DNA from: Candidatus Latescibacterota bacterium
GTDB lineage: Bacteria; Latescibacterota; UBA2968; UBA8231
Reading direction: 5' to 3'
DNA length: 64,000 bases
Assembly (NCBI GenBank): GCA_964291625.2
Contig: OZ220089.1
Span: forward strand, 2,272,001 to 2,336,000
The notes under the pieces are model-generated. The model made no database searches. It was not told where the DNA came from and saw nothing but the letters and a program-made list of their open reading frames with translations. The translations under genes and the position numbers were made by a program. This document shows positions 22,663-57,948 of this stretch, piece after piece (position 1 is the first letter of the stretch; each line of letters starts with the position of its first letter).

Positions 22663-25600
22663 TCAGTCCGCCTTCGCCACCTCCTCGATCGCCCGCTCCA
22701 GCCGCGCCGCGGAGACGCGCTCCGCCGTCCCCAGCTCCTGGGCGAAGACCGAGACCCGGAACTCCTCCACCAGCCAGCGCAGGGTCTCGGCCCGCCGGCG
22801 CCGCTCCGGCGAGGCCCCGTCGAGGCCTTCCCGGATCTGCCCCCAGGCGCGGGCGAAGGGCTCCACCTGGGCGGCCTTGCCCGCGTCGCGGCCGCGGTCG
22901 GCCTGGAAGCGGTCGGCGCGCACTGCCATGGCCTTCAGGTAGCGCACGAGGTGGGGCAGGCGGTCGAACTCCAGTCCATCCAGGAAGTCCGCCGGCAGCA
23001 GGCGCCGCAGGTCCTCCTTCAGGCCCGGGTAGGGCCGCGGCTGGGCGCTCAGCCGGGACCTGAGCTCCAGGATCTCCCCCATCAGGTTGAGGAAGCGCCG
23101 CGACAGGCCCTCGAGCCGCTCCCGGGACCGGGCCACCCGGGCCTCGAAGCGCTCCCGGGTCAGGGGGAAGACCCCGCCCTCCAAAAACAGGTAGCGGGCC
23201 AGGTGCTCGTACGCCTGTGCCTCGAACTCGCCCGGATCCCCCGCCAGCCCGTCGGCGGCCAGCGACCGCAGGTCCATCAGCTCCCGCTGGAGCCATACCG
23301 CCTCGTCCTTCAGGGCCAGCTCGCAGAGCCGCTGAAAACCCGCGGGCGTGGCGGCGCGGGCCTCCTCGCGGTCGTGGAAGAGGCGCAGGTGGACCGCGTT
23401 CCCCTCGAGCACCAGGCCCGGGAAGGCGAAGACGGGCACCCCCGAGACCCTGGTCACCTCGAGGCGCTCGGGCAGGTCCCCGAAGTCGAAGCCGGTCACG
23501 TCCTCCCGCTCCCAGCGGCGAGCGGCCTCCCCCCAGGCCTCGAGGTTGACCGCCCCGGCCCCCGCCGGCCGGTCGAGCTGCCCTGAGAGGGCGGCCAGGT
23601 CGCGCCCGGCGGCCAGGGTGGCGCCCTCGCCCTCGATCTCCACCCGCAGGCGCAGGTGTTCGGGGACCGCCTCCAGGTCCCAGTCGGCGCGGCGCACCTG
23701 CACCCGCCAGTGCTCCTCGATGTAGCGCTCCAGGGCGTCGAGGAAGGTGCCGTCCCCGTGGGTGGGCTTCAGGTCGGCGGCGATCCTCCGGGCCGCGGAC
23801 GGCACCGGCACGAAGCGCTTGCGCAGGGCCTTGGGCAGTGACCGCAGCAGCGCCGTGACCCGCTCCTCCACCAGCCCCGGGACGAGCCAGTCGAGGACCT
23901 CCGGCCGCACCGCGTCCAGCAGCCGGTACGGCAGTTGCAGGGTGATGCCGTCGGCCTCCTGGCCCGGCTCGTACCGGTAGGAGAGCCCCAGCCGCACCCC
24001 GTCGATGTCGACCGCCTCGGGGAAGGCCTCGGCGTCGACGCCGGCGGCGCCTCCGAGGAGCCGGGCCTCGTCGGCGAGGAGGAAGTCGTCGCGCCCCCCG
24101 TGGTCGCGGATGACGCGGTTGAGGTCGTGTACCGAAGCCGTGCCCTCCGGCAGCAGCCCGGCGTAGAAGTCGTGGAAGGCGTCGTCGAGGTCGACGGGAG
24201 ATGCCCCGCGCCGGCGGCTCTGCCAGACCTCGAGGCGCTGGTGCAGGCGGCGGTTGTGGTCGAGGAAGCCGTGGCCGGCGCCGTCGATCTCGCCGGCGAT
24301 CAGACCCTCGCGCACGAAGATGTCCCGAGCCTCTCGCGGGGCGATGCGGCCGTAGCCGACGCGGCCCTCGGAGACCACGAGCCCGTGGAGGCGGATGGTC
24401 TCGTGCGCGAGGACGCGTCCGGCCGACCGGCTCCAGTGCGGGTCCCGGTGGCTCATGCGGCACAGGTGCTTCCCCAGGTCCAGGATCCACTCCGGCCGGA
24501 TGGCGGCGCAGGTGCGCGCGTAGAGGCGGTTCGTCTCCACCATCTCCGCGGCCACCACCCACTCCGCCCCCTCGGCCACGGGGCCCGCCCCGTCCCGCCC
24601 ATCCGCCGCCGGCGTCTGGGGCCCGCGCTTCCTCGGCTCGGGGCGCTGGAACAGCCCCGAGCCCGGAAAGAGCATCGCCTTCCGCCCGCGGGGCGCTGCG
24701 TAGAGGTTGCGGTCCTCGCGCCGCCCCACGTGGCTCAGGAGCCCGGTGAGCAGGCAGCGGTGCACGGCGTCGTACGCGGCCTCGCCCCCGGAGGCTTCCG
24801 GCTCGAGCCGGAAGCCGCTCAGCTCCCGCAGGTTGGCCCGCAGCTGGGCGTGGATGTCCCGCCACTCGCGCATGCGCAGGTAGGAGAGGTAGTGCCGCTT
24901 GCAGAACCGGCGCAGCTGCGACTGCGTGCCCTCCTCCATGCGGTCGTGGAAGGCGGTCCAGATGTTGAGCAGGGTGAGGAAATCGGAGCGCGGGTGGACG
25001 AAGCGCCGGTGGGCGAGATCGGCCTTCTCCTCCTCCTCGGCCGGGCGCTCCCGCGGGTCCTGGACGGAGATGGCGGCGGCGATGACCAGGACCTCCGCCA
25101 GGGAGCCCTCGTCGCGGGCCTGCAGGACCATGCGCGACACCGCCGGCGAGATCGGCATGCGCGCCATGTCCCGCCCCATGGGGGTGAGGCGGCGGTCGCC
25201 GTCGATCGCGCCGAGCTCCTCGAGCAACTGGTAGCCGGCGCGGACCGCGGCCTCGGAGGGCGGATCGAGGAAGGGGAAGCTCTCCACCCGCCCAAGCTCC
25301 AGGTCGAGCATCCGCAGGATCACCTCGGCGAGGTTGGCGCGCTGCATCTCCGGCGGGGTGTGCTCGGGCCGCGCCTGCAGGTCCTCCTCGCCGTAGAGGC
25401 GCACGCAGGTCCCGTCCTCGACGCGGCCGCAGCGCCCCTTGCGCTGCTCCGCCGAGGCGCGGCTGATCTCCTCGATCGGCAGCCTCTGAGTCTGGCTCCG
25501 GGGGTTGTAGCGCGAGATCCGCGCCAGGCCGGTGTCGACGACGTAGCGGATGCCGGGGATGGTCAGCGAGGTTTCGGCGATGTTGGTGGCGATGACGATC

Positions 25601-26679
25601 CGCCGCCCCGAGTGGGGTCCGAAGACGCGCTGCTGCTCGGCGGCGCCGAGGCGCGAGAACAGGGGCAGGACCTCCACCCCGCCGGCGCCCTGGCGCCGCT
25701 GCGCCAGCCTGACGGCCAGCAGGTCGCGGGTCTCGCGGATGTCGCGCTCCGACGGCATGAAGACGAGCACGTCGCCGCGGGTCGACGCGGCCAGCAGCCG
25801 CTCGCAGGCGGCCACGGCCCCGTCGGTGTAGGAGAGCCCGCCCTCCTCCCCCTCCAGCAGCTCCTCCAGCGGCCAGTGCCGGACCTCGACCGGGTAGACG
25901 CGGCCCGACACCTGGACGACGGGCGCCCCGTCGAAGGCGCGGGAGAACCTCTCGGTGTCGATGGTGGCCGAGGTGACGACGATCCGCAGGTCGGGGCGGC
26001 GGGACCGAAGGGTGCGCACGTAGCCGAGGAGGAAGTCGATGTTCAGGGAGCGCTCGTGGGCCTCGTCGATGATCAGGGTGTCGTACTCCAGCAGGTCGCG
26101 GTCCGAGCGGACCTCGGCGAGCAGCAGGCCGTCGGTGACGAACTTGATCAGCGTCTCGGGCGAGGTGTGGTCCCGGAAGCGGATCTTCGCGCCCACCTCC
26201 CGCCCCCACTCGACGCCCAGCTCCTCGGCCAGCCGGCGCGAGAGCGACGTGGCCGCCACACGGCGGGGCTGGGTGACGGCGATGCGGGCGTCCCTCCCGC
26301 GGCCGGCGAGGAGGCAGATCTTGGGGATCTGGGTGGTCTTGCCCGAGCCGGTGTCCCCGGCGACGATGACCACGGGATGGGCGCGGATGGCGGCCTGGAT
26401 CTCGTCGGCGCGCTGGCTCACCGGCAGCTCCGCCGGGAAGCCGAGGGTCATCGCCTCCAGGGCCTGCCGGCGCAGGGCGCGGGTCCGCCGCGAGCGGCGG
26501 GCCCGCTCGGCGATGTGGTCGAGGTCCTGCACCAGGCGCCGGGGCGGCCGGCCGCTGGTCAGGGCTTCCCGCAGGCGGCGGAGCCGGCGGCCGAGGCGCA
26601 CGCGGTCCGACATCATGCAGCCGTCAAGGCGGCGCTCGAGGTCGACCAGTCTTGCGTCGGGGGGGGCGGCGGTGCTCAT
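22663..26679 (-). CDS. hrpA: ATP-dependent RNA helicase HrpA
   Basis: GDTGSGKTTQ, DEAHERSLNID, SAT, QRKGRCGR, DUF3418-type C-terminus WLVEEFRVSVFAQELGT. Confidence 0.96.
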   Translation of the reverse strand: MSTAAPPDARLVDLERRLDGCMMSDRVRLGRRLRRLREALTSGRPPRRLVQDLDHIAERARRSRRTRALRRQALEAMTLGFPAELPVSQRADEIQAAIRAHPVVIVAGDTGSGKTTQIPKICLLAGRGRDARIAVTQPRRVAATSLSRRLAEELGVEWGREVGAKIRFRDHTSPETLIKFVTDGLLLAEVRSDRDLLEYDTLIIDEAHERSLNIDFLLGYVRTLRSRRPDLRIVVTSATIDTERFSRAFDGAPVVQVSGRVYPVEVRHWPLEELLEGEEGGLSYTDGAVAACERLLAASTRGDVLVFMPSERDIRETRDLLAVRLAQRRQGAGGVEVLPLFSRLGAAEQQRVFGPHSGRRIVIATNIAETSLTIPGIRYVVDTGLARISRYNPRSQTQRLPIEEISRASAEQRKGRCGRVEDGTCVRLYGEEDLQARPEHTPPEMQRANLAEVILRMLDLELGRVESFPFLDPPSEAAVRAGYQLLEELGAIDGDRRLTPMGRDMARMPISPAVSRMVLQARDEGSLAEVLVIAAAISVQDPRERPAEEEEKADLAHRRFVHPRSDFLTLLNIWTAFHDRMEEGTQSQLRRFCKRHYLSYLRMREWRDIHAQLRANLRELSGFRLEPEASGGEAAYDAVHRCLLTGLLSHVGRREDRNLYAAPRGRKAMLFPGSGLFQRPEPRKRGPQTPAADGRDGAGPVAEGAEWVVAAEMVETNRLYARTCAAIRPEWILDLGKHLCRMSHRDPHWSRSAGRVLAHETIRLHGLVVSEGRVGYGRIAPREARDIFVREGLIAGEIDGAGHGFLDHNRRLHQRLEVWQSRRRGASPVDLDDAFHDFYAGLLPEGTASVHDLNRVIRDHGGRDDFLLADEARLLGGAAGVDAEAFPEAVDIDGVRLGLSYRYEPGQEADGITLQLPYRLLDAVRPEVLDWLVPGLVEERVTALLRSLPKALRKRFVPVPSAARRIAADLKPTHGDGTFLDALERYIEEHWRVQVRRADWDLEAVPEHLRLRVEIEGEGATLAAGRDLAALSGQLDRPAGAGAVNLEAWGEAARRWEREDVTGFDFGDLPERLEVTRVSGVPVFAFPGLVLEGNAVHLRLFHDREEARAATPAGFQRLCELALKDEAVWLQRELMDLRSLAADGLAGDPGEFEAQAYEHLARYLFLEGGVFPLTRERFEARVARSRERLEGLSRRFLNLMGEILELRSRLSAQPRPYPGLKEDLRRLLPADFLDGLEFDRLPHLVRYLKAMAVRADRFQADRGRDAGKAAQVEPFARAWGQIREGLDGASPERRRRAETLRWLVEEFRVSVFAQELGTAERVSAARLERAIEEVAKAD

Positions 26680-26741: not shown

Positions 26742-27980
26742 ATGCATGAATTCATGGACACGCTGGGGGCGTGGTTCGCCGAGCACCCCTTTGAGCGCCA
26801 GGCGGCCCACACCGCCGGTCTCATTCTGCTTGCGTGGGCAACCCACCTGCTGGGCCGCAAGGTCCTGCTGCGCTCCATGACGGTCCTGATCCGGGCGAGC
26901 AGCACCAGGATGGACGACGTGCTGCTCGACCGGGGCGTGCTGAACCGCGCCGCCCTGCTGCTGCCGGTGCTCGTCTTCTACTACGGCGCCGACGGTCTGC
27001 CGGGATCGAGAGAGACGGTCCTGCAGGTGGTCAACGCCGGCCTGCTCATGGTGGTGCTGCTCGTGGCCGGGGCCGTGATCGGAGCCCTGCAGGAGGCGCT
27101 GGCCGACTACGACGCGCGCACCGAGGTGCCGATCAAGAGCTATGCCCAGATCGTGAAGATCGCCCTCTACGTCATCGGCGGTCTCATGACGGTGGCGGTC
27201 CTGACGGGGCGGTCGCCCTGGGTGCTGCTCTCGGGCGTCGGCGCCCTGATGGCCGTGGTCATCCTCATCTTCCGCGACACCCTCCTGTCGCTGACGGCCA
27301 GCTTCACCATCGCCTCCAACCGGCTCGTCAAGGTGGGCGACTGGATCGAGGTCCCCACTTTCGGAGCCGACGGAGACGTCATCGAGATCGCCCTGCACAC
27401 GGTGAAGGTGCAGAACTGGGACAAGACGATCACCACCATTCCCACCCACAAGCTGGTGGACGTCTCCTTCAAGAACTGGCGCGGCATGCAGGACAGCGGA
27501 GGCCGCCGGATCAAGCGCGCCATCCACATCGACATGAACTCGATCCGGTTCTGCGACGCGGAGATGCTGCAGCGCTTTCAACATTTCGAGCTGATCCGTG
27601 ACTACCTGGCCTCCCGTCAGAAGGAAGTGGAGGAGCACAACGCCGAATCCCGGGTCGACGCCTCCGAACTGGTCAACGGCCGGCGCCTGACCAACGTGGG
27701 CACCTTCCGGGCCTACGTGGCCGCCTACCTGCGCAGCCACCCGCTCATCCGCCAGGACATGACCTTCCTGATCCGTCAGCTGGCGCCGACGGGGCAGGGC
27801 CTGCCCCTCGAGATCTACGTCTTCACCAGCACCACCGTGTGGGCCGACTACGAGGGGATCCAGTCCGACATCTTCGACCATCTGCTGGCGGTGGTGCCGC
27901 GCTTCGAGCTGCGCGTCTTCCAGGAGCCCGCAGGGTCGGACTTCGCGGCCGCCTTGCACGCGCCGGCGCCGCGGCCATAA
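26742..27980 (+). CDS. ybdG: mechanosensitive channel MscS family (YbdG/MscM-like)
   Basis: GDWIEVP..GADGDV, VQNWDKTITTIPT, FKNWRGM..SGGRRIKR, LTNVGTFRAY, YEGIQSDIFDH. Confidence 0.9.
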   Translation: MHEFMDTLGAWFAEHPFERQAAHTAGLILLAWATHLLGRKVLLRSMTVLIRASSTRMDDVLLDRGVLNRAALLLPVLVFYYGADGLPGSRETVLQVVNAGLLMVVLLVAGAVIGALQEALADYDARTEVPIKSYAQIVKIALYVIGGLMTVAVLTGRSPWVLLSGVGALMAVVILIFRDTLLSLTASFTIASNRLVKVGDWIEVPTFGADGDVIEIALHTVKVQNWDKTITTIPTHKLVDVSFKNWRGMQDSGGRRIKRAIHIDMNSIRFCDAEMLQRFQHFELIRDYLASRQKEVEEHNAESRVDASELVNGRRLTNVGTFRAYVAAYLRSHPLIRQDMTFLIRQLAPTGQGLPLEIYVFTSTTVWADYEGIQSDIFDHLLAVVPRFELRVFQEPAGSDFAAALHAPAPRP

Positions 27981-28004: not shown

Positions 28005-28571
28005 ATGAGCAGGAGCGACCGCAAGACCCTCGCGGCCATGGTCCGAATGGCGCTGATCCTGCCGGCCTTCGGCCTCGTGCTCCTTCCTCCGGCGCCTGCC
28101 GGGGCGGCGACCCGATCGCAGTTCACCCTGCCGTCCCTCGACGGCAAGGAGTTCTCGCTGCAGAAGGCGCTGGAAGAGGGCCCGGTGATCCTCGATTTCT
28201 GGGCCACCTGGTGCAAGCCCTGCATCAAGGGGCTGCCCGCGGTGCAGAAGATCGCCAAGGAGTTCGAGGATCGCGGTGTGGGGGTCTACGCCGTCAATGT
28301 CGACGGTCCGCGCAATCAGCCCAAAGTGAGGCCCTTCCTCAAGCGCCACCGCCTGGAGCTGCCGGTCCTCCTCGACCATTCGCGGCAGGTGATGAAGCAG
28401 TTCCAGCTGCCCGCGGTGCCGGCGTCGATGATCATCTCCACGGAGGGCGAGGTGGTGTACAAGCACTTCGGGTACAAGCCGGGAGACGAGGTCCGCCTGC
28501 GCGCCCGACTGATGGAGTTGCTGGGAGAGGCCGTTCCCGATTCAACGAAAGGGGAAGCCGATGAGAGCTAG
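28005..28571 (+). CDS. TlpA family thiol-disulfide oxidoreductase (exported)
   Basis: Signal peptide; DFWATWCKPC; cis-Pro AVP; HFGYKPGDE. Confidence 0.92.
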   Translation: MSRSDRKTLAAMVRMALILPAFGLVLLPPAPAGAATRSQFTLPSLDGKEFSLQKALEEGPVILDFWATWCKPCIKGLPAVQKIAKEFEDRGVGVYAVNVDGPRNQPKVRPFLKRHRLELPVLLDHSRQVMKQFQLPAVPASMIISTEGEVVYKHFGYKPGDEVRLRARLMELLGEAVPDSTKGEADES

Positions 28572-29445
28572 AAGCGTCCTGCGGAAGGGACCGTTCGCCT
28601 GCGCGGCGATCGCCCTCACCGCTCTCCACGTGGCCGGAGCCGGGGAGGCCGAGGCCCAGGCGGCCGGCGATCCGGCCCCCACCTTCGAGCTCGAGACCGT
28701 GGACGGGGAGCTCGTGTCGCTGGGCGACTTCCTCGACGAGAAGGTCGTCTACATCAACTTCCTCGGGAACACCTGACCGTACTGCGTCGCGGAGGCCGCG
28801 AGTTCCGAGGCAATCTGGCAGGACTACGGGGGCGATCAGCTCATCGCCCTCGGAATCGATATCTGGGACGGACGGGCATCGAGCGTCAAGTCCATCTGGG
28901 TAGACGACGGTCTGGCGACCTACCCGATACTGGTCAACGGTTCGGGGGTGGCCCGGGACTACGGCGTGGTCCAGGACTACTACATCGTCATCGACCACGA
29001 GGGGGTTATCCGCTACCGGTCGCCCGACGCCAGGCTCGGCCAGCGCTACAACGACGGCGAGATCCGCGAGGCCATCGACGCCGCCCTGGCCGATCTGGCC
29101 GCCGCCCTGGAAGAAGTGGAGGAGGAGCCGGAGGAAGTGATCACGGCGGTCTCCACCCCTCCCCGGGTGCCCGCCGGCTTCGCCCTGGAGGCCTGGCCGA
29201 ATCCCTTCAACGCCGAGACCACTCTCTCCTTCACGGTGACCGCGGCAGGTCCCGTGGCCCTGACCATATTCGATCTGCAGGGGCGGGTCCTGCGCGGCTG
29301 GTCCGGACACTACGGTGCGGGGACCCACTCCCTGACCTGGGACGGGCGCGACGAAGGCGGTGAAGCGGTCGCCTCCGGCGTCTACATCGCTTCCGCGCGC
29401 CAGGGGGGCGCGGCCATCGCCCGGAAGGTCACTCTGCTGAAGTAG
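28561..29445 (+). CDS. putative selenoprotein: exported redoxin (UPYC) fused to FlgD-Ig/T9SS-type C-terminal domain, 294 aa, TGA 28774-28776 read as Sec
   Basis: ORFs 28561-28776 and 28948-29445 are in the same frame with no other stop; reads APTFELETVDG..VSLGDF..KVVYINFLGNT-U-PYC..LIALGID..YPIL..YIVIDHEGVIRY; C-terminal WPNPFN..IFDLQG..WDGRD..VASGVY..KVTLLK. Confidence 0.85.
28787..28801 (+). promoter_or_regulatory. candidate bacterial SECIS hairpin
   Basis: tcgcgg-agg-ccgcga stem-loop starting at the 11th nt after the in-frame TGA, G-containing apical loop. Confidence 0.55.
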
Positions 29446-29468
29446 GGGGCGGCCGGCTCCCCCGCCCC
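29446..29468. terminator. hairpin between convergent genes
   Basis: ggggcgg...ccgcccc inverted repeat filling the intergenic gap. Confidence 0.35.
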
Positions 29469-30995
29469 TTACAGCACCTCGCTGGTGAGGCGCAGCTCGA
29501 TGCCCTCGAAGCCCAGCACCTCGTAGCAGCTGCCGCCGGTGCAGGCCAGCCCCGTCCTGCGCCGGCCCCCGAAGACGTCCAGCGTGTGGGTGTCGCGGAA
29601 CCGCCAGCTGGCGCCCAGGGCCCACCAGTACGTCGCACCCGACTCCGAGGCCCCCGCCTCCAGGGGATCGTTGGACCTCTGCAGCTGCAGGGACCAGGTC
29701 CATGCCGGATAGCGGCTGAGCTCCACCGTTCCCAGCAGGTTCTCGTAGGGGAAGTCGCTGCGGCCGAAGCGCCGGTCCACATCCTGCACCTGCAGGTCGG
29801 CGCTCGCGGCGTGGCGTCCGCCGGCGGACCAGTCCCAGCGCGTGCCTGCCGTCAGGCGGCGCTCGTTCTCGAGGATGCGGTTGCGCGTGTAATCGAGGAA
29901 CAGCTGCCCGTGCAGCGCCTCTCCCACCGGGGAGTCCAGCTGCAGGAAGTACTCGCGCAGGGACTTCTCGTCCCCCGGGTCCGATCCCCGGCGAGTGGCC
30001 AGGTTCCAGGCGGCGGTCAGTCCGATGCCGCGGGGCAGGGCCCAGGTCAGCTCGGCCTGCACTCCGGCCTCGTCGTCGGCGAGCAGGGCGTGGGTCTCGC
30101 GGTTGAGGAGGAAGGCCTCGTGCTCCCGGATCAGCGTCGGCGGGTTGTTGAGGCTCGGGAAGGCGAAGTCCTGGTAGTCCTTCAGCTCCAGGCTCAGCCC
30201 CCAGGTCCCGCCGGTCAGGGTGCCGGCCAGGTAGAGCGCCCTCGGGTGGTCGCGCTCCAGGGAGAGCCAGGGTCCGGGGGCGGGGTCGATCCGGGCGTAC
30301 TCGCCGTAGAGATCCCCGTACCAGCCGCCCAGTCCGAGCCTCTCGAGGAGGGAGCCGAAGCGCAGTTCCCCATGGGTGGTGGCGCCGAGCTCCTCCTCCC
30401 CGCCGAAGGAGAACTCGATCAGTCCCGCCCCCACCTCGATGTCGCCGCTCACCCTGGCCCGGACGGCGCCCCCGGAGACCCGGCCCTGGCGCCGGTCGAG
30501 ACCCTTCAGCCCGGGGGCCAGCTCGCTGTTCACGGGCACGCCGTGCAGCGCCAGCACTTCCACCTGCCGCCACCGTCCCCTCACCCGCGCGCCGTCGAGG
30601 TCGCGTACGATCTGGTAACGCTGGCGGGAGACGCGGTCCTCGGTGATGACGCCCGGAAGCTCGAAGGCGTGCAGCAGCACACCGCGTCCCACCAGGGCGT
30701 AGAAGTGCCCCGCCGTGGCCTCGAGACCGCCGCGGCGCCAGGAGAGGGACCGCTGGGCGAGATGGAGATAGCCGCGGTCCTCGCCGCTGGAGCGGAAGGC
30801 CTCGCTGCGGGCGCTGGCCAGGAACCCCGCGGACTCGAAGCCGAGGCTCACCTGCTGGTACAGGGCCCGCAGGTCGGCCGGTTCGGCGTCGGGCAGGTTT
30901 CCGAGCTGGTACTCGTGGAGGGCGGTGACCCGCACCTGGGCGTCGAGGGGAGCGGCGGCCGTCAGGACGACGGCCAGCAGAGCGAGAAGGATCAT
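29469..30995 (-). CDS. outer-membrane beta-barrel protein, DUF6029-like, with C-terminal CxxxxC
   Basis: Signal peptide, GHFYALVGRGVLL, amphipathic beta-strands, C-terminus GRRRTGLACTGGSCYEVLGFEGIELRLTS. Confidence 0.7.
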   Translation of the reverse strand: MILLALLAVVLTAAAPLDAQVRVTALHEYQLGNLPDAEPADLRALYQQVSLGFESAGFLASARSEAFRSSGEDRGYLHLAQRSLSWRRGGLEATAGHFYALVGRGVLLHAFELPGVITEDRVSRQRYQIVRDLDGARVRGRWRQVEVLALHGVPVNSELAPGLKGLDRRQGRVSGGAVRARVSGDIEVGAGLIEFSFGGEEELGATTHGELRFGSLLERLGLGGWYGDLYGEYARIDPAPGPWLSLERDHPRALYLAGTLTGGTWGLSLELKDYQDFAFPSLNNPPTLIREHEAFLLNRETHALLADDEAGVQAELTWALPRGIGLTAAWNLATRRGSDPGDEKSLREYFLQLDSPVGEALHGQLFLDYTRNRILENERRLTAGTRWDWSAGGRHAASADLQVQDVDRRFGRSDFPYENLLGTVELSRYPAWTWSLQLQRSNDPLEAGASESGATYWWALGASWRFRDTHTLDVFGGRRRTGLACTGGSCYEVLGFEGIELRLTSEVL

Positions 30996-31010: not shown

Positions 31011-31364
31011 TCAGCCCTTCCGGAACTCGCCGACGGCCGCGGCCTGAGACTCATAGATCGGGATGACCTCATCGAAGCCGCTGGCGGTGAAGACCTCGCG
31101 CACCGGATCGCAGAGGGAGCAGATGCCGAAGTGCATGCCATGCCTGTTGAACCTCCTGCCAACCCTCAGGCCGGCCCGGAGGCCGGCGCTGCTGATGAAG
31201 GAGACCTGCTCGAAGTCCAGGATCAGGGCCTGATCGGCGGCATCGATCCCGGAATCCAGCTCCGCCTGGAGCTTCTCGGCGTTGCTGCCGTCGACCCGGC
31301 CGAGAATCCTGGCAACAGCGATTCCCTTCTTGCGCTCCCACGTGATGTCGAACGCCGATTTCAT
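31011..31364 (-). CDS. STAS domain anti-sigma factor antagonist
   Basis: GRVDGSNA, LDFEQVSFISSAGLR, VREVF..SGF. Confidence 0.9.
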   Translation of the reverse strand: MKSAFDITWERKKGIAVARILGRVDGSNAEKLQAELDSGIDAADQALILDFEQVSFISSAGLRAGLRVGRRFNRHGMHFGICSLCDPVREVFTASGFDEVIPIYESQAAAVGEFRKG

Positions 31365-31625
31365 CAGCCTCCTGCTTCAGGTCGGGCCGGTCGCGACCCC
31401 CTCGGGACTCCACGGAGATCCGGGAAGTTCAAAGAGCCCTTCGCCGGCAGTCAAGGCAGGGCGCTCTTCCTCGGGATAGCAGCAACTGTAGATGGTGTCC
31501 GCTGAGCCTTTGTCCATACTAAAGAGCCTTGTCTTTCTCGCGTCCATAAGTAAATTTGGCGCCGATGCTTTCATTGGATGGCCCGCTACGCAAAGAACTT
31601 GCACAAGCGCGCGCACCGGAGGGCA

Positions 31626-32819
31626 ATGATGTACCGCGGTCCGACCGGCGAATACGCAGCCACGCTGCATGGCGATGAAGAGGTCCGGGCATTCGTGCCC
31701 CGGCCGCTGCCCCCGACCCCCCCGCTCCAGATGGAGGGCCGCCTGCAGGTGCTGCTCGAGGAGGCGACCCATGCCCTCGGCCGGCTGGACGGTGCAGCCA
31801 CGCTCCTGCCTGATCCCGGCCTCTTCATCTACAGCTACGTGCGCAAGGAGGCCGTCCTGTCCTCCCAGATCGAGGGCACGCAGTCGTCCCTGTCAGACCT
31901 CCTGCGCTTCGAGTCAGCCCATGCTCCGGGCGCTCCGGTCCAGGATGTCCTCGAGGTATCGAGGTATGTGAAGGCCGTGGACCACGCGACCGCCCAACTC
32001 TCCGCCGAAGAGGGTTTGCCTCTATGCAACCGCCTGCTCCGGGAGGCGCATCGGATTCTTCTGACGGGCGCCCGGGGCGGCGACATGCAGCCGGGAGAGT
32101 TCCGCCGATCACAGAGCTGGATCGGCGGGACTCGCCCGGGAAACGCCGCCTTCGTGCCCCCTCCTCCGGCCGAGGTGGGGGCGGCCATGTCGGACCTCGA
32201 GCGGTTCGTCCACGCGTCCGGGGACGGCCTGCCCGCCCTGGTGAGGGCCGGACTCGCCCATGTCCAGTTCGAGACCATCCATCCCTTTTTGGATGGCAAC
32301 GGCCGCGCGGGCAGGATGCTGATCATCCTCATGCTGATCGACCGTGGGCTCCTCTCGTCGCCCGTTCTGTACCTCAGCCTGCACTTCAAGCAGCACCGCG
32401 ACCACTACTACGAGCTGCTCGACGCCGTTCGGCGCACCGGGGACTGGGAAACCTGGCTCGAGTTCTTTCTCGAGGGAGTCGGGGCCGTGGCCAACTCCGC
32501 TCGCGAGACCGCCCGGCGCCTGACGGCCATGGCCTCGGCGGACCGGTCGAGGATTGCGGCCGGCGGCCGTGGCGCGAACTCCCTTCTGCGGGTCCACGAG
32601 GCGCTCACCGCGGGCGTCATCGTCAACGTTGCCGAAGTCGTGGATCGCACCGGACTCTCCGCACCCACGGTCGGCAACGGCCTGAGACGGCTGTGTGCTC
32701 TGAACATTGCCGAAGAGATCACCGGAGGACGCCGGAACAGGGTCTTCGTGTATGGCGAGTACCTCGAGGTACTCGCCGAGGGCACTGAACCTCTGGCCCC
32801 GTCCGCCAGCCGAGCATGA
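31626..32819 (+). CDS. Fic family protein (Fic_N + Fic + HTH)
   Basis: EAVLSSQIEGT inhibitory motif, HPFLDGNGRAGR catalytic motif; GGAGG RBS before ATG 31626/31629. Confidence 0.92.
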   Translation: MMYRGPTGEYAATLHGDEEVRAFVPRPLPPTPPLQMEGRLQVLLEEATHALGRLDGAATLLPDPGLFIYSYVRKEAVLSSQIEGTQSSLSDLLRFESAHAPGAPVQDVLEVSRYVKAVDHATAQLSAEEGLPLCNRLLREAHRILLTGARGGDMQPGEFRRSQSWIGGTRPGNAAFVPPPPAEVGAAMSDLERFVHASGDGLPALVRAGLAHVQFETIHPFLDGNGRAGRMLIILMLIDRGLLSSPVLYLSLHFKQHRDHYYELLDAVRRTGDWETWLEFFLEGVGAVANSARETARRLTAMASADRSRIAAGGRGANSLLRVHEALTAGVIVNVAEVVDRTGLSAPTVGNGLRRLCALNIAEEITGGRRNRVFVYGEYLEVLAEGTEPLAPSASRA

Positions 32820-56077: not shown

Positions 56078-56998
56078 TCAGGCCCCCCGCATGACCAGAC
56101 TCACCCGGTGGCCGGCACCGAGTCCGTCCCCGAAGGGCAGGAAGGCGTAGTCCAGCTGCCAGGGGCGGGCCGTCAGGCCCAGCCCGAAGGCCGGACTCCC
56201 GGAGGCGGGAGTGCCGTACCCGGTGCGCACCACCAGGCGCGGCGACAGACGCCACTCCGCCCCCAGGTGCAGGCTCGGGCCGGTGCCCCGGCTCGCGCCC
56301 ACGTCGGCGGCGGCGGTCAGGGCGCCCCGCGCCAGGACCGCGCCGAGGCGGGCCTGCAAGGGCAGCTCGGTGGCCTCCCGGTCGAGGGCGTTCATCCGCC
56401 CCAGGTTGCGCACCGCCGCCCCGAGCCTCCAGGGGCCGCTCCCGTAGAGCAGCCCCAGGTCGGCGGCCAGTCCCGCGGAAGCCTCCACGTCGATCGACTG
56501 GCGCACCACCTTGGCGCCGATTCCCGTCCGCAGGCGCTCCCCCCAGGGGCGGGACCAGGCGGCGCCCGCCGTCCACTCGTAGAGGCCGAACTCCCCCAGG
56601 GGATCCCGGGTCGGGCCCAGACGGCGCTCCAGCCCTCCCGCATGGGCCAGGCGCACGTCGACAGCCAACACGTCGCCCGCCGCTCCCGTCCACAAGGCCG
56701 CGGCCTGCTCGTGGCGCATGCCGCCGATCCACTCCGTATGGCTGAGCACGGCCGAGGCGCCCGGGGCCAGGGCCGCCGGATTGAGGCTGGCCGCCGACGG
56801 ATCGGCGAGGGCCGTCGCCGCTCCCCCCAGGGCCGCGGACCGGGCCCCGGCGTCCTGGCGCAGGAATCCGAGACCGGTGTCGGCGTCGATGCCGCCGGGC
56901 CTCCAGCAGGCCCAAAGCGCGATCAGGACCGCCGGCAGAACCCGCCGCGGCCGGATGGGTTCCGGCCTTCGCACGGCCCCGGGCGCGCGGACCTTCAT
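56078..56998 (-). CDS. PorV/PorQ family outer-membrane beta-barrel
   Basis: FL..AGARSAALGGA, NPAAL, SHTEWI, ADLG, NLG, LDYAF..LGAGHRVSL. Confidence 0.78.
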   Translation of the reverse strand: MKVRAPGAVRRPEPIRPRRVLPAVLIALWACWRPGGIDADTGLGFLRQDAGARSAALGGAATALADPSAASLNPAALAPGASAVLSHTEWIGGMRHEQAAALWTGAAGDVLAVDVRLAHAGGLERRLGPTRDPLGEFGLYEWTAGAAWSRPWGERLRTGIGAKVVRQSIDVEASAGLAADLGLLYGSGPWRLGAAVRNLGRMNALDREATELPLQARLGAVLARGALTAAADVGASRGTGPSLHLGAEWRLSPRLVVRTGYGTPASGSPAFGLGLTARPWQLDYAFLPFGDGLGAGHRVSLVMRGA

Positions 56999-57948
56999 GG
57001 CAGTCGACCCGCAAGGCTGAAGACGGTGCGGGCGCCGGCGCCGATCTCGTCCGCCACGTACGCGTAGTGAACCTCGAAGGCCTCGACGCGCATGGGCCGG
57101 ACGGTGACACCGAAGGTGGGCCGGCCCACGCCCTCCCCCGCACCGGCGCGGTGCAGTCCTCCGCGCAGGGTCAACAGGTCGCCCAGCCTCCACTCGAGAC
57201 CGAGATGCCCGCGCAGCTCGCGGTCCCCCGCCGGGTCGAGGACCTCCGCCTCCACGGCGGCCATGGCCCCCGGGCGGAGGACGTGCGAGACCCCCACGGA
57301 GAGGGCGGATCGCAGGGCCTCCTCGGTGACGCTGGTCTGGTCGGAGAGCCGCTGCACCTTCCACGACAGCTTGTCGAGCAGGTTGCGCGCCGTTACCCCC
57401 AGGGCGGTCCGGGAGGACAGGCTCCAGCGAACCCCCAGATCGGCGCCGCGGCCGGTGGCCGTCGAGGCGCCGCTCACCGGCACCTCGATGCGATGCCGGA
57501 GGATCTTCAGGCTGGCGCCGATCTGCAGACGCACCGCGGGACGAAGGCCGAGGCCGAAGATCACGGCATCCTCGGCGCTCCCCAGGTCGCCGGTGGCCTC
57601 GCCCGAGCCGCTGCGCCCCCGCAGGCCGCCCACCCCGGCGTGCAGCCAGGCCAGGCCGAAGGCCAGGTCTCCCCTGGGGTTGATGGCCACCGCCAGTCCG
57701 GACCGCGTGCGGTCGAGGGACATGGGCTGGTACGAGGCCAGCATTCCCTTGCCGGTCGAGGTGGCCAGTCCCGCGGGGTTGTAGAGCACGGCGGCGGGCC
57801 CCTCGGCGGAGGCCGCCTGAGCGCCGCCCAGACCGAGGGCCCGGGCGCCGAGGCCGGTCTCGAGATAGGCGCCGCCGAGGCGCCCGGCAGCGGCCGGAGA
57901 CGCCGCCTGCCACACGATCAGGGCCGCGAGGGCGAGGGTGCGCCGCAT
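56995..57948 (-). CDS. PorV/PorQ family outer-membrane beta-barrel
   Basis: Signal peptide, GLGARALGLGGA, YNPAGL, DLG, GLEW..LRGG, YAY. Confidence 0.78.
   Translation of the reverse strand: MRRTLALAALIVWQAASPAAAGRLGGAYLETGLGARALGLGGAQAASAEGPAAVLYNPAGLATSTGKGMLASYQPMSLDRTRSGLAVAINPRGDLAFGLAWLHAGVGGLRGRSGSGEATGDLGSAEDAVIFGLGLRPAVRLQIGASLKILRHRIEVPVSGASTATGRGADLGVRWSLSSRTALGVTARNLLDKLSWKVQRLSDQTSVTEEALRSALSVGVSHVLRPGAMAAVEAEVLDPAGDRELRGHLGLEWRLGDLLTLRGGLHRAGAGEGVGRPTFGVTVRPMRVEAFEVHYAYVADEIGAGARTVFSLAGRLP

What the first reader, a model, noticed from the sequence alone, without database searches (positions are those of the whole stretch)
28005..30995. Candidate trans-envelope thiol/selenol redox system: TlpA + Sec-redoxin-CTD + DUF6029-like barrel with CxxxxC
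Seen: three adjacent exported proteins each carry a redox-type pair. TlpA (WCKPC) overlaps the selenoprotein gene (UPYC) by 11 nt, and a convergent beta-barrel ends in GLACTGGSCYEV. My recollection, to be checked, is that DUF6029 barrels cluster with TlpA and Omp28-related proteins in Bacteroidota. Inference: an uncharacterised relay could pass electrons from a periplasmic TlpA, through the barrel's dithiol loop, to a surface selenoprotein. It could reduce extracellular disulfides or oxidants, or mature secreted proteins.
Basis: inference. Interest (0 to 1): 0.82.

Follow-up and report, generated by a model that had tools for sequence, protein, structure and literature searches.

The report
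Thioredoxin-plugged outer-membrane barrel relay
Three neighbouring genes encode a periplasmic disulfide reductase, a large outer-membrane pore that a structure model predicts it plugs into, and a surface-sorted selenium protein; together they may carry thiol chemistry across the outer membrane, which I found described in no paper.

Summary
The window holds a TlpA-like reductase (WCKPC), an overlapping Sec-redoxin (TGA read as Sec, SECIS-like stem, T9SS tail) and a convergent DUF6029 barrel of about 24 strands with an invariant CxxxxC.

Across 168 genomes of the phylum, this TlpA subfamily occurs in 101 of 102 barrel genomes and 0 of 66 others. The redoxin occurs in 99 of 102. In 80 loci from named, mostly Bacteroidota genomes, 76 hold all three genes, mostly in the Cys form. 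Seven gene orders occur overall.

A complex model scored ipSAE 0.75 (best control 0.01; that mark is reached by 116 of 157 solved and 2 of 215 mismatched pairs). It seats TlpA inside the periplasmic half of the lumen, active-site face on the loop carrying Cys466.

In genomes without DUF6029, the same redoxins flank an unrelated barrel with a C-terminal Cys-Cys tail and, in two genomes, a Sec-TlpA.

Best reading (0.55): DsbD → TlpA → barrel dithiol → surface redoxin. Redoxin-barrel contact and electron flow are untested. The redoxin lacks the cis-Pro, so a metal(loid) relay is a live rival.

The parts
28005..28571 (+). Periplasmic TlpA/ResA-like reductase of a DUF6029-dedicated subfamily (WCKPC = C70/C73; cis-Pro kept; subfamily motifs DGPRN and HxGYxPGDE); signal peptide, no lipobox, no tail
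   Evidence: closest solved sequence relative PDB 2m72
28212..28223 (+). TlpA CKPC active-site codons
   Evidence: sequence; invariant in 95 of 95 aligned relatives
28561..29445 (+). Exported selenocysteine redoxin: signal peptide, ResA-like domain with UPYC (U72/C75) and Asp in place of the cis-Pro, acidic linker, T9SS type A C-terminal domain
28774..28776 (+). In-frame TGA read as selenocysteine
   Evidence: aligns to Cys in relatives; tRNA-Sec and selA in genome
28787..28801 (+). SECIS-like hairpin, starting 11 nt after the TGA
   Evidence: 84% of cells paired, covariation 0.48 against 0.19 in shuffles (0 of 500 reached it) and at most 0.18 when slid
29194..29442 (+). T9SS type A / FlgD-Ig-like C-terminal sorting domain of the redoxin
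   Evidence: TIGR04183 above cut-off; separate all-beta domain in AF2 model
29469..30995 (-). DUF6029-family outer-membrane beta-barrel, about 24 strands, no built-in plug domain; loops L3 (GRG), L7 (NNPPT..LLNR) and L12 predicted to reach into the lumen
29526..29543 (-). CxxxxC (C485/C490; mature C466/C471) in a hairpin of the last outer loop L12; C466-G469 touch TlpA in the predicted complex

Best explanation
A thiol relay across the outer membrane. (1) A DsbD/ScsB-type inner-membrane protein elsewhere in the genome reduces the soluble periplasmic TlpA (inferred from the family). (2) TlpA enters the barrel from the periplasm, fills the inner half of the lumen and attacks the L12 disulfide at C466 (modelled, not shown). 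(3) The CxxxxC hairpin, reachable from both faces, passes the electrons outward, as the DsbD membrane domain does at the inner membrane (inferred). (4) A surface-anchored Sec/Cys redoxin, sorted by T9SS tail here and by lipoprotein signal in other relatives, is re-reduced from outside (inferred; no model). It then spends the electrons on an extracellular substrate. Because it has no cis-Pro, that substrate is more likely a small oxidant, sulfur/selenium compound or oxidised thiol than a generic protein disulfide (guess).
For: Obligate pairing: the TlpA subfamily is in 101 of 102 barrel genomes and 0 of 66 others, with copy numbers matching in G042, G066 and G071. The redoxin is in 99 of 102 barrel genomes, also where it is unlinked. 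Seven gene orders occur, and no other neighbour recurs in more than 21 of 140 loci. CxxxxC is present in 96 of 99 full-length 50%-identity representatives. Complex model: ipSAE 0.75, best control 0.01; the mark was reached by 116 of 157 solved and 2 of 215 mismatched pairs; runs agree in at least 89% of contacts; partner pLDDT at least 83. All 45 strand contacts lie in the periplasmic half, over 19 of 24 strands. L12 C466-G469 is in the interface, as are TlpA A32-W34, K36 and the cis-Pro loop 95-103. The redoxin carries two independent surface signals in relatives: 34 long-tailed and 44 short, lipoprotein-type, and 48 of 48 tails tested hit TIGR04183. The genome encodes SprA, PorV, PorU-like and DsbD-like proteins. 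A parallel design exists: in DUF6029-less G037 and G039 the same redoxins precede an unrelated PF13557 barrel ending in Cys-Cys and then a Sec-TlpA.
Against: No test of redoxin-barrel contact. TlpA's nucleophilic Cys (C35 in model numbering) is not itself in the contact list, the 25 best-resolved pairs lie mostly on the barrel wall and none involves the CxxxxC loop, and no coordinates were returned, so the S-S distance is unknown. The controls were unrelated proteins, not a non-cognate thioredoxin. Paired mutual information showed no signal. The redoxin lacks the cis-Pro: Asp in 71 of 86, Pro in 2 of 86. It occurs in 10 genomes without a detected DUF6029; 5 of these were re-searched with the barrel profile and 3 with PF19494, without a hit. 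It lies away from the barrel in 14 to 16 of 60 phylum loci. CC-tailed barrels also sit with HMA and zf-CopZ genes.
Confidence: 0.55

Rival explanations
1. Thiophilic metal or metalloid relay running inward. The surface Sec/Cys protein captures Cu, Hg, As or Se species and hands them to the barrel CxxxxC. TlpA either keeps these thiols reduced or strips the ligand, much like MerP to MerT but at the outer membrane.
For: The redoxin lacks the cis-Pro, which PMC2757866 (passages) says may prevent metal binding at CxxC. CC-tailed PF13557 barrels sit beside HMA and zf-CopZ genes in L220, and in G066 contig C452 the order is CC-barrel, zf-CopZ, TlpA, DUF6029. A znuA-like gene recurs in 11 Bacteroidota loci.
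Against: TlpA keeps the cis-Pro in 95 of 95. No HMA or zf-CopZ family is among the 45 commonest neighbour clusters of the 140 barrel loci (only three of those clusters were named by Pfam). The znuA link is confined to 11 loci and may be plain synteny.
Confidence: 0.17
2. TlpA and barrel are a self-contained unit: a thiol-gated or thiol-lined pore whose L12 pair reduces small molecules entering the vestibule or controls permeability. The redoxin is a functionally related but physically separate surface enzyme.
For: TlpA-barrel pairing is tighter (101 of 102, 0 of 66) than the redoxin link (99 of 102, 10 of 66). The partner is interchangeable: Omp28 lipoproteins in canonical loci. The model has TlpA plugging the lumen.
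Against: A surface-sorted CxxC/UxxC protein is kept beside the pair through repeated rearrangements and across phyla. It is present elsewhere in the genome where unlinked. It recurs beside an unrelated Cys-bearing barrel.
Confidence: 0.16
3. The CxxxxC is a structural disulfide. TlpA is a dedicated assembly factor or isomerase that binds the lumen during biogenesis, and the barrel is a receptor, exporter or anchor for the surface thioredoxin-fold protein, or a polysaccharide porin as suggested for DUF6029-like barrels.
For: A disulfide closing a beta-hairpin is a common structural device (general knowledge). PMC9603273 (passages) reports Wzi-barrel homologues near OPX genes resembling DUF6029. 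The best fold matches are protein-translocating ushers.
Against: A structural disulfide needs no dedicated, co-retained reductase. Wzi ranks only 12th (Z 15.2). The redoxin has its own export signals. An unrelated barrel gained a free C-terminal Cys-Cys tail in the same gene context.
Confidence: 0.12

Closest known systems
Bacteroidota TlpA-DUF6029-Omp28 gene trio (e.g. two canonical loci in Ancylomarina sp. DW003; P. gingivalis PG2175/PG2174/PG2173 per earlier scan notes)
   Same: Homologous barrel over about 410 columns (hhalign 99.6%) with the same C-terminal CxxxxC. Similar TlpA upstream; PDB 2m72 is the top solved relative. A CxxC surface-type partner nearby.
   Different: The partner here is a ResA-like Sec/Cys redoxin without cis-Pro, not Omp28: 1 of 86 members hits NF033782, weakly. 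The barrel is a divergent subfamily (54 bits against 620-670 for canonical ones). The trio itself has no described function in the papers searched.
DsbD/ScsB/CcdA to TlpA/ResA/CcmG periplasmic reducing pathways (Caulobacter ScsB-TlpA-PprX; PMC5403849, passages)
   Same: TlpA-type CxxC reductase with cis-Pro; a DsbD-like source in the genome; a membrane-embedded Cys pair as shuttle.
   Different: Known routes end in the periplasm. Here the next membrane protein is an outer-membrane barrel and the final partner is surface-sorted.
Porin-cytochrome conduit MtrAB (PDB 6r2q)
   Same: A large barrel housing a redox protein in its lumen (MtrA in MtrB is recalled knowledge); MtrB appears at Z 13.8 in the fold search.
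   Different: Mtr uses haem chains and one-electron hops, and the barrel is passive. Here no haem proteins occur and the barrel itself carries the redox pair. The Z score reflects only general barrel likeness.
HBP35 of Porphyromonas gingivalis (PMC2907840, abstract)
   Same: Thioredoxin-active protein with a C-terminal sorting domain displayed on the cell surface: precedent for a T9SS-exported thioredoxin.
   Different: Cys-only and hemin-binding. The abstract names no reducing partner, and I did not test its relation to this redoxin.
Prx-like / Trx-like UxxC selenoproteins and GOS_C (PMC2398784, passages)
   Same: pfam00578 fold with UxxC and Cys homologues is a known selenoprotein class.
   Different: The passages seen mention no export, sorting tail or barrel link. 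The Omp28-related selenoprotein model NF045500 did not hit this protein at E <= 0.1.

Membership tests
DUF6029 (PF19494) | Profile score above the gathering cut-off | tested here: met
   54.1 bits against 27; full-length hhalign to a canonical member, probability 99.6%
DUF6029 (PF19494) | Outer-membrane beta-barrel with C-terminal CxxxxC before the last strand | tested here: met
   AF2 pLDDT 96.8, pTM 0.92; both Cys present in 96 of 99 full-length representatives
Bacterial selenoprotein | In-frame TGA aligned to conserved Cys in homologues | tested here: met
Bacterial selenoprotein | SECIS-like hairpin downstream and Sec machinery in the genome | tested here: met
   Covarying stem; tRNA-Sec; selA above cut-off. 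The single-sequence fold was unremarkable, z -1.08. selB and selD were not searched.
Bacterial selenoprotein | Selenium incorporation in the protein | not testable with these tools
   needs 75Se labelling or mass spectrometry
T9SS type A cargo | Signal peptide plus C-terminal TIGR04183 domain; T9SS core in the genome | tested here: met
   SprA, PorV and C25/PorU-like genes. PorK/L/M/N were not searched. The signal peptide was judged by eye.
Omp28 / GOS_C (NF033782, NF045500) | Family profile match for the surface partner | tested here: not met
   Window protein 12.9 bits against cut-off 150; 1 of 86 members at E <= 0.001; true Omp28-like neighbours of canonical barrels scored 58-72 bits
TlpA/ResA reductases (for the 28005 gene) | WCxxC, cis-Pro, ResA-like profile | tested here: met
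   Below the whole-protein cut-offs of the named NCBIfam models, so subfamily-level likeness only.
TlpA/ResA reductases (for the redoxin) | cis-Pro before strand 3 | tested here: not met
   Asp 71, Pro 2 of 86
Peroxiredoxins (for the redoxin) | Arg at the cis-Pro position and a TxxC motif | tested here: not met
   Asp at that column, Arg one residue later in 57 of 86, U/CxxC motif. Fold hits to AhpE and ResA are near-tied.
Porin-cytochrome conduits (MtrAB) | Multihaem cytochrome housed in the barrel | tested here: not met
   The partners are thioredoxin-fold, with no CxxCH in the three proteins. It may work like one but is not a member.
Fimbrial ushers / Wzi / other solved barrels | Sequence or clear structural homology | tested here: inconclusive
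   No PDB sequence hit at E <= 1; best Z 18.6, rmsd 4.7, 361 aligned to FimD, 10% identity

The most novel reading that the evidence does not exclude
Diderm bacteria of the FCB group and others extend the DsbD reducing pathway to the cell surface. A soluble thioredoxin docks inside an outer-membrane barrel, reduces a cysteine pair carried by the barrel itself, and so recharges surface Sec/Cys redoxins. The design evolved at least twice: DUF6029 barrels with a loop CxxxxC, and PF13557 barrels with a C-terminal Cys-Cys arm.
Probability: 0.5. Interest if true: 0.92.

Novelty: categorically new. Interest (0 to 1): 0.82.

Why it matters
Described bacterial thiol-reducing pathways stop in the periplasm, and described electron conduits through the outer membrane use haems (general knowledge; my literature searches found no thiol-based one). 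Surface thioredoxins such as HBP35 have no reducing partner named in what I read. A thioredoxin-plugged barrel with its own cysteine pair would answer how they are recharged. It would give a function to DUF6029 and define a new class of outer-membrane machine. It is directly testable: Cys-form triads lie in cultured environmental strains (Reichenbachiella agariperforans DSM 26134, Flavobacterium glaciei DSM 19728), and the model names the residues to mutate. Even under the rivals, a thioredoxin docked in a barrel lumen matches no solved structure found here.

Tried and rejected
Paired mutual-information test of barrel against TlpA (137 loci, about 90 effective): no enrichment of predicted interface pairs (1, 2, 4 of the top 20, 50, 100 against 1.2, 3.1, 6.1 expected). 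It is underpowered and neither supports nor refutes. Searches were the same test with wrong residue offsets and are discarded, and the barrel-redoxin list is not used.

Single-sequence folding of the SECIS region was not significant; only the alignment test is used. The promoter/terminator scan found nothing at the locus. No solved sequence relative of the barrel was found. Fold searches gave only generic large barrels; absence of a family there excludes nothing.

The search for Omp28 in this genome rang nowhere, controls included, so it is uninformative. The idea that the redoxin is lost with the Sec machinery was rejected: genomes whose barrel has no adjacent redoxin still have selA and an unlinked redoxin. 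A phylum-wide survey of canonical DUF6029 in Bacteroidota was not obtained; only 5 genomes were searched.

Literature searches that found no description of the system: (DUF6029; one paper, on polysaccharide porins). The library lacks most subscription papers, and no supplements were read.
Full report
OBSERVATION. TlpA is 28005-28571 (+). The redoxin is 28561-29445 (+), with an in-frame TGA at 28774-28776 and an 11-nt overlap. The barrel is 29469-30995 (-), with only two Cys, C485 and C490 (mature C466/C471). Pfam gives AhpC-TSA/Redoxin for both thioredoxin folds, FlgD_ig for the redoxin tail, and DUF6029 (54.1 bits, cut-off 27) for the barrel. The tail passes TIGR04183.

SELENOCYSTEINE. The genome has tRNA-Sec and selA about 2 kb from it. 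The TGA column is U or C in all 86 aligned domains. In 45 distinct sequences after the TGA, a 5-bp stem is 84% paired, with two-sided changes at all 5 pairs and covariation 0.48 against 0.19 in shuffles (0 of 500) and at most 0.18 when slid. I read the stem off the window sequence, the sequences are related, and one clade uses a shifted register, so this supports but does not prove a SECIS.

BARREL. CxxxxC is present in 81 of 90 close proteins, the query included; the other 9 look truncated or frameshifted. It is present in 96 of 99 full-length 50%-identity representatives. The 115-row alignment in which both Cys are invariant was chosen for the motif and is not independent. AlphaFold2 gives pLDDT 96.8 and pTM 0.92. 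Merging the DSSP segments by hand gives 24 strands and no plug domain, with long loops after odd strands and short turns after even ones. The Cys pair lies in a hairpin of the last outer loop, L12. No PDB sequence matches. The best structural matches are the FimD and PapC usher pores (Z 18.6 and 18.1, rmsd 4.7-5.0, about 360 aligned); Wzi scores 15.2 and MtrB 13.8. This is generic barrel likeness. The family is homologous to canonical DUF6029 over 410 columns.

CO-OCCURRENCE. Of 168 genomes of the phylum, 102 have the barrel. The TlpA subfamily profile (E <= 1e-38, my cut-off) hits 101, all barrel genomes. The one miss, G153, has its barrel at a contig end. None of the 66 barrel-less genomes has it, and G042, G066 and G071 have two of each. 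The redoxin profile (E <= 1e-22, my cut-off) hits 99 of 102 barrel genomes and 10 of 66 others. Both profiles were built from barrel-adjacent genes, and kin are not independent. I fetched 60 barrel loci from 58 of the 102 genomes: TlpA is adjacent in 59 and the redoxin in 44, all with a Sec form and 3 also with a Cys copy; two more carry a frameshifted copy. In 80 of 216 loci from named genomes, mostly Bacteroidota and selected by a CxxGxC pattern, TlpA is adjacent in 77 (78 with a partial one), the redoxin in 78 (75 Cys, 3 Sec) and both in 76. Three misses are at contig ends and one is the partial TlpA. Seven orders and orientations of the triad occur. No other neighbour family recurs in more than 21 of 140 loci.

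LOCATION. TlpA relatives have signal-peptide-like N-termini; 2 of 137 have a lipobox-like match and none has a tail over 22 residues (pattern rules, no SignalP). That indicates a soluble periplasmic protein. The redoxins from the named-genome loci are either long-tailed (34) or short, lipoprotein-type (44). Of the latter, 31 of 44 have an acidic stretch after the Cys by my rule, with about 4 Cys mis-picked. That resembles the Bacteroidetes lipoprotein export signal (PMC5080379, abstract). All 48 tails aligned, chosen by tail motif, hit TIGR04183. Other families of the phylum use a dockerin-like or a short SWGxIK tail, whose sorting role is not known to me. This genome has SprA, PorV, C25/PorU-like and DsbD-like genes. 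HBP35 is a precedent for a surface thioredoxin with a C-terminal domain (PMC2907840, abstract).

COMPLEX MODEL. Barrel plus TlpA scored ipSAE 0.75 (runs 0.86, 0.75, 0.73) against a best control of 0.01. This mark was reached by 116 of 157 solved and 2 of 215 mismatched pairs (counts hold only roughly with my alignments). Runs agree in at least 89% of contacts and partner pLDDT is at least 83. The model supports binding; it does not show it. Of 81 barrel contacts, 45 are on strands, all in the periplasmic half and spread over 19 of 24 strands. Twelve are at periplasmic turns or ends, and 24 are on loops L3, L7 and L12, including C466-G469. On TlpA the contacts include A32-W34 and K36 flanking the nucleophile, the cis-Pro loop and the subfamily motif DGPR. 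TlpA thus sits like a plug with its active-site face on the Cys loop. Limits: C35 is not listed, the best-resolved pairs are mostly on the wall, no coordinates were available, no non-cognate thioredoxin control was run, and mutual information added nothing.

THE REDOXIN IS NOT A STANDARD REDUCTASE. It folds as a thioredoxin-like domain plus a separate beta domain, with AhpE and ResA near-tied as fold matches and PDB 2ls5 the closest sequence. It is not Omp28, the partner found at canonical loci. The cis-Pro position holds Asp in 71 and Pro in 2 of 86, whereas TlpA has Pro in 95 of 95. PMC2757866 (passages) links that Pro to substrate binding and to excluding metals. Its chemistry is open.

A SECOND BARREL. 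G037 and G039 have redoxins but no DUF6029 by two searches. There, two redoxin genes are followed by a 302-aa PF13557 barrel with a tail ending SCCRIQ or ACCRIQ, and then a periplasmic-type TlpA with ASWUGxC. The query and 15 of its 16 homologues end in this Cys-Cys. Nineteen distant paralogues examined lack the tail and had no thioredoxin hit nearby. Of 5 metagenome loci, 3 have redoxins upstream (one appears to be the G039 sequence), 1 is too short, and 1 lies among HMA and zf-CopZ genes. In G066 the order is CC-barrel, zf-CopZ, TlpA, DUF6029. The same three-part logic with an unrelated barrel argues that the barrel's Cys pair is functional. The metal genes feed the main rival. This rests on few loci.

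MECHANISM AND VERDICT. Shown: the genes, their conservation, the Sec/Cys exchange and the sorting signals. Modelled: TlpA in the lumen on the Cys loop. Inferred: DsbD as source, outward flow, redoxin docking and substrate. I give 0.55 to an outward thiol relay, 0.17 to a metal(loid) relay, 0.16 to a self-contained thiol pore and 0.12 to a structural disulfide with an assembly factor. Known reducing pathways such as ScsB-TlpA-PprX end in the periplasm (PMC5403849, passages). The only paper naming DUF6029 in the library suggests polysaccharide export for look-alike barrels (PMC9603273, passages). PMC13744359 (passages) lists PG2173 and PG2175 in vesicle proteomes without a function. PMC2398784 (passages) covers UxxC Prx-like and GOS_C selenoproteins. 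Other papers were seen only as search listings, and searches returned none. No supplements were read and subscription papers are mostly absent, so a prior description cannot be excluded. Earlier notes of this scan describe the same trio; they are leads, not support.

Noticed in passing
L190:9352-10844, L191:2429-4900, L218, L222 (G037, G039, metagenome loci): PF13557 (Phenol_MetA_deg) barrel subfamily with an added C-terminal tail ending in Cys-Cys, flanked by Sec-redoxins and, where the contig extends, a Sec-TlpA; a possible convergent version of the module.
   Followed up: partly
L220 and L200 (G066 contig C452): CC-tailed barrels beside HMA and zf-CopZ genes; L220 has two such barrels and a TlpA-like protein with an N-terminal CC; in G066, TlpA and DUF6029 follow directly.
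   Followed up: partly
window 29446-29468: GC-rich inverted repeat (GGGGCGG...CCGCCCC) between the convergent stops, without a U-tract; seen by eye, not listed by the terminator scan.
   Followed up: no
G000 whole genome: 146 tblastn hits to the T9SS-like tail and 14 PorV-family matches (5 above cut-off), two of them in this window near 56093-57867; an expanded T9SS repertoire in a probable Latescibacterota genome.
   Followed up: no
G000:C1:4518917: A second AhpC/TSA-type candidate selenoprotein (VFYRGFF-TGA-GFC).
   Followed up: no
L039, L060-L082: The redoxin's tail is swapped among a T9SS type A domain, a dockerin-like repeat and a short SWGxIK peptide, suggesting these are alternative surface-sorting signals in this phylum.
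   Followed up: no
L057:9531-10106 and 10 related loci: msrA lies near the triad in 11 loci of this phylum.
   Followed up: partly
window 26742-27980, 31011-31364, 31578-32819, 22663-26679: Flanking genes: MscS channel and STAS protein (Pfam); a Fic-like protein and an HrpA-like helicase (recognised from motifs, not tested). None appeared among the commonest neighbours of the barrel in relatives.
   Followed up: partly
G171 (Ancylomarina sp. DW003), L144, L188, L189: One genome carries two canonical TlpA-DUF6029 loci with Omp28-like genes nearby and one locus of the redoxin type, implying separate roles or substrates.
   Followed up: partly
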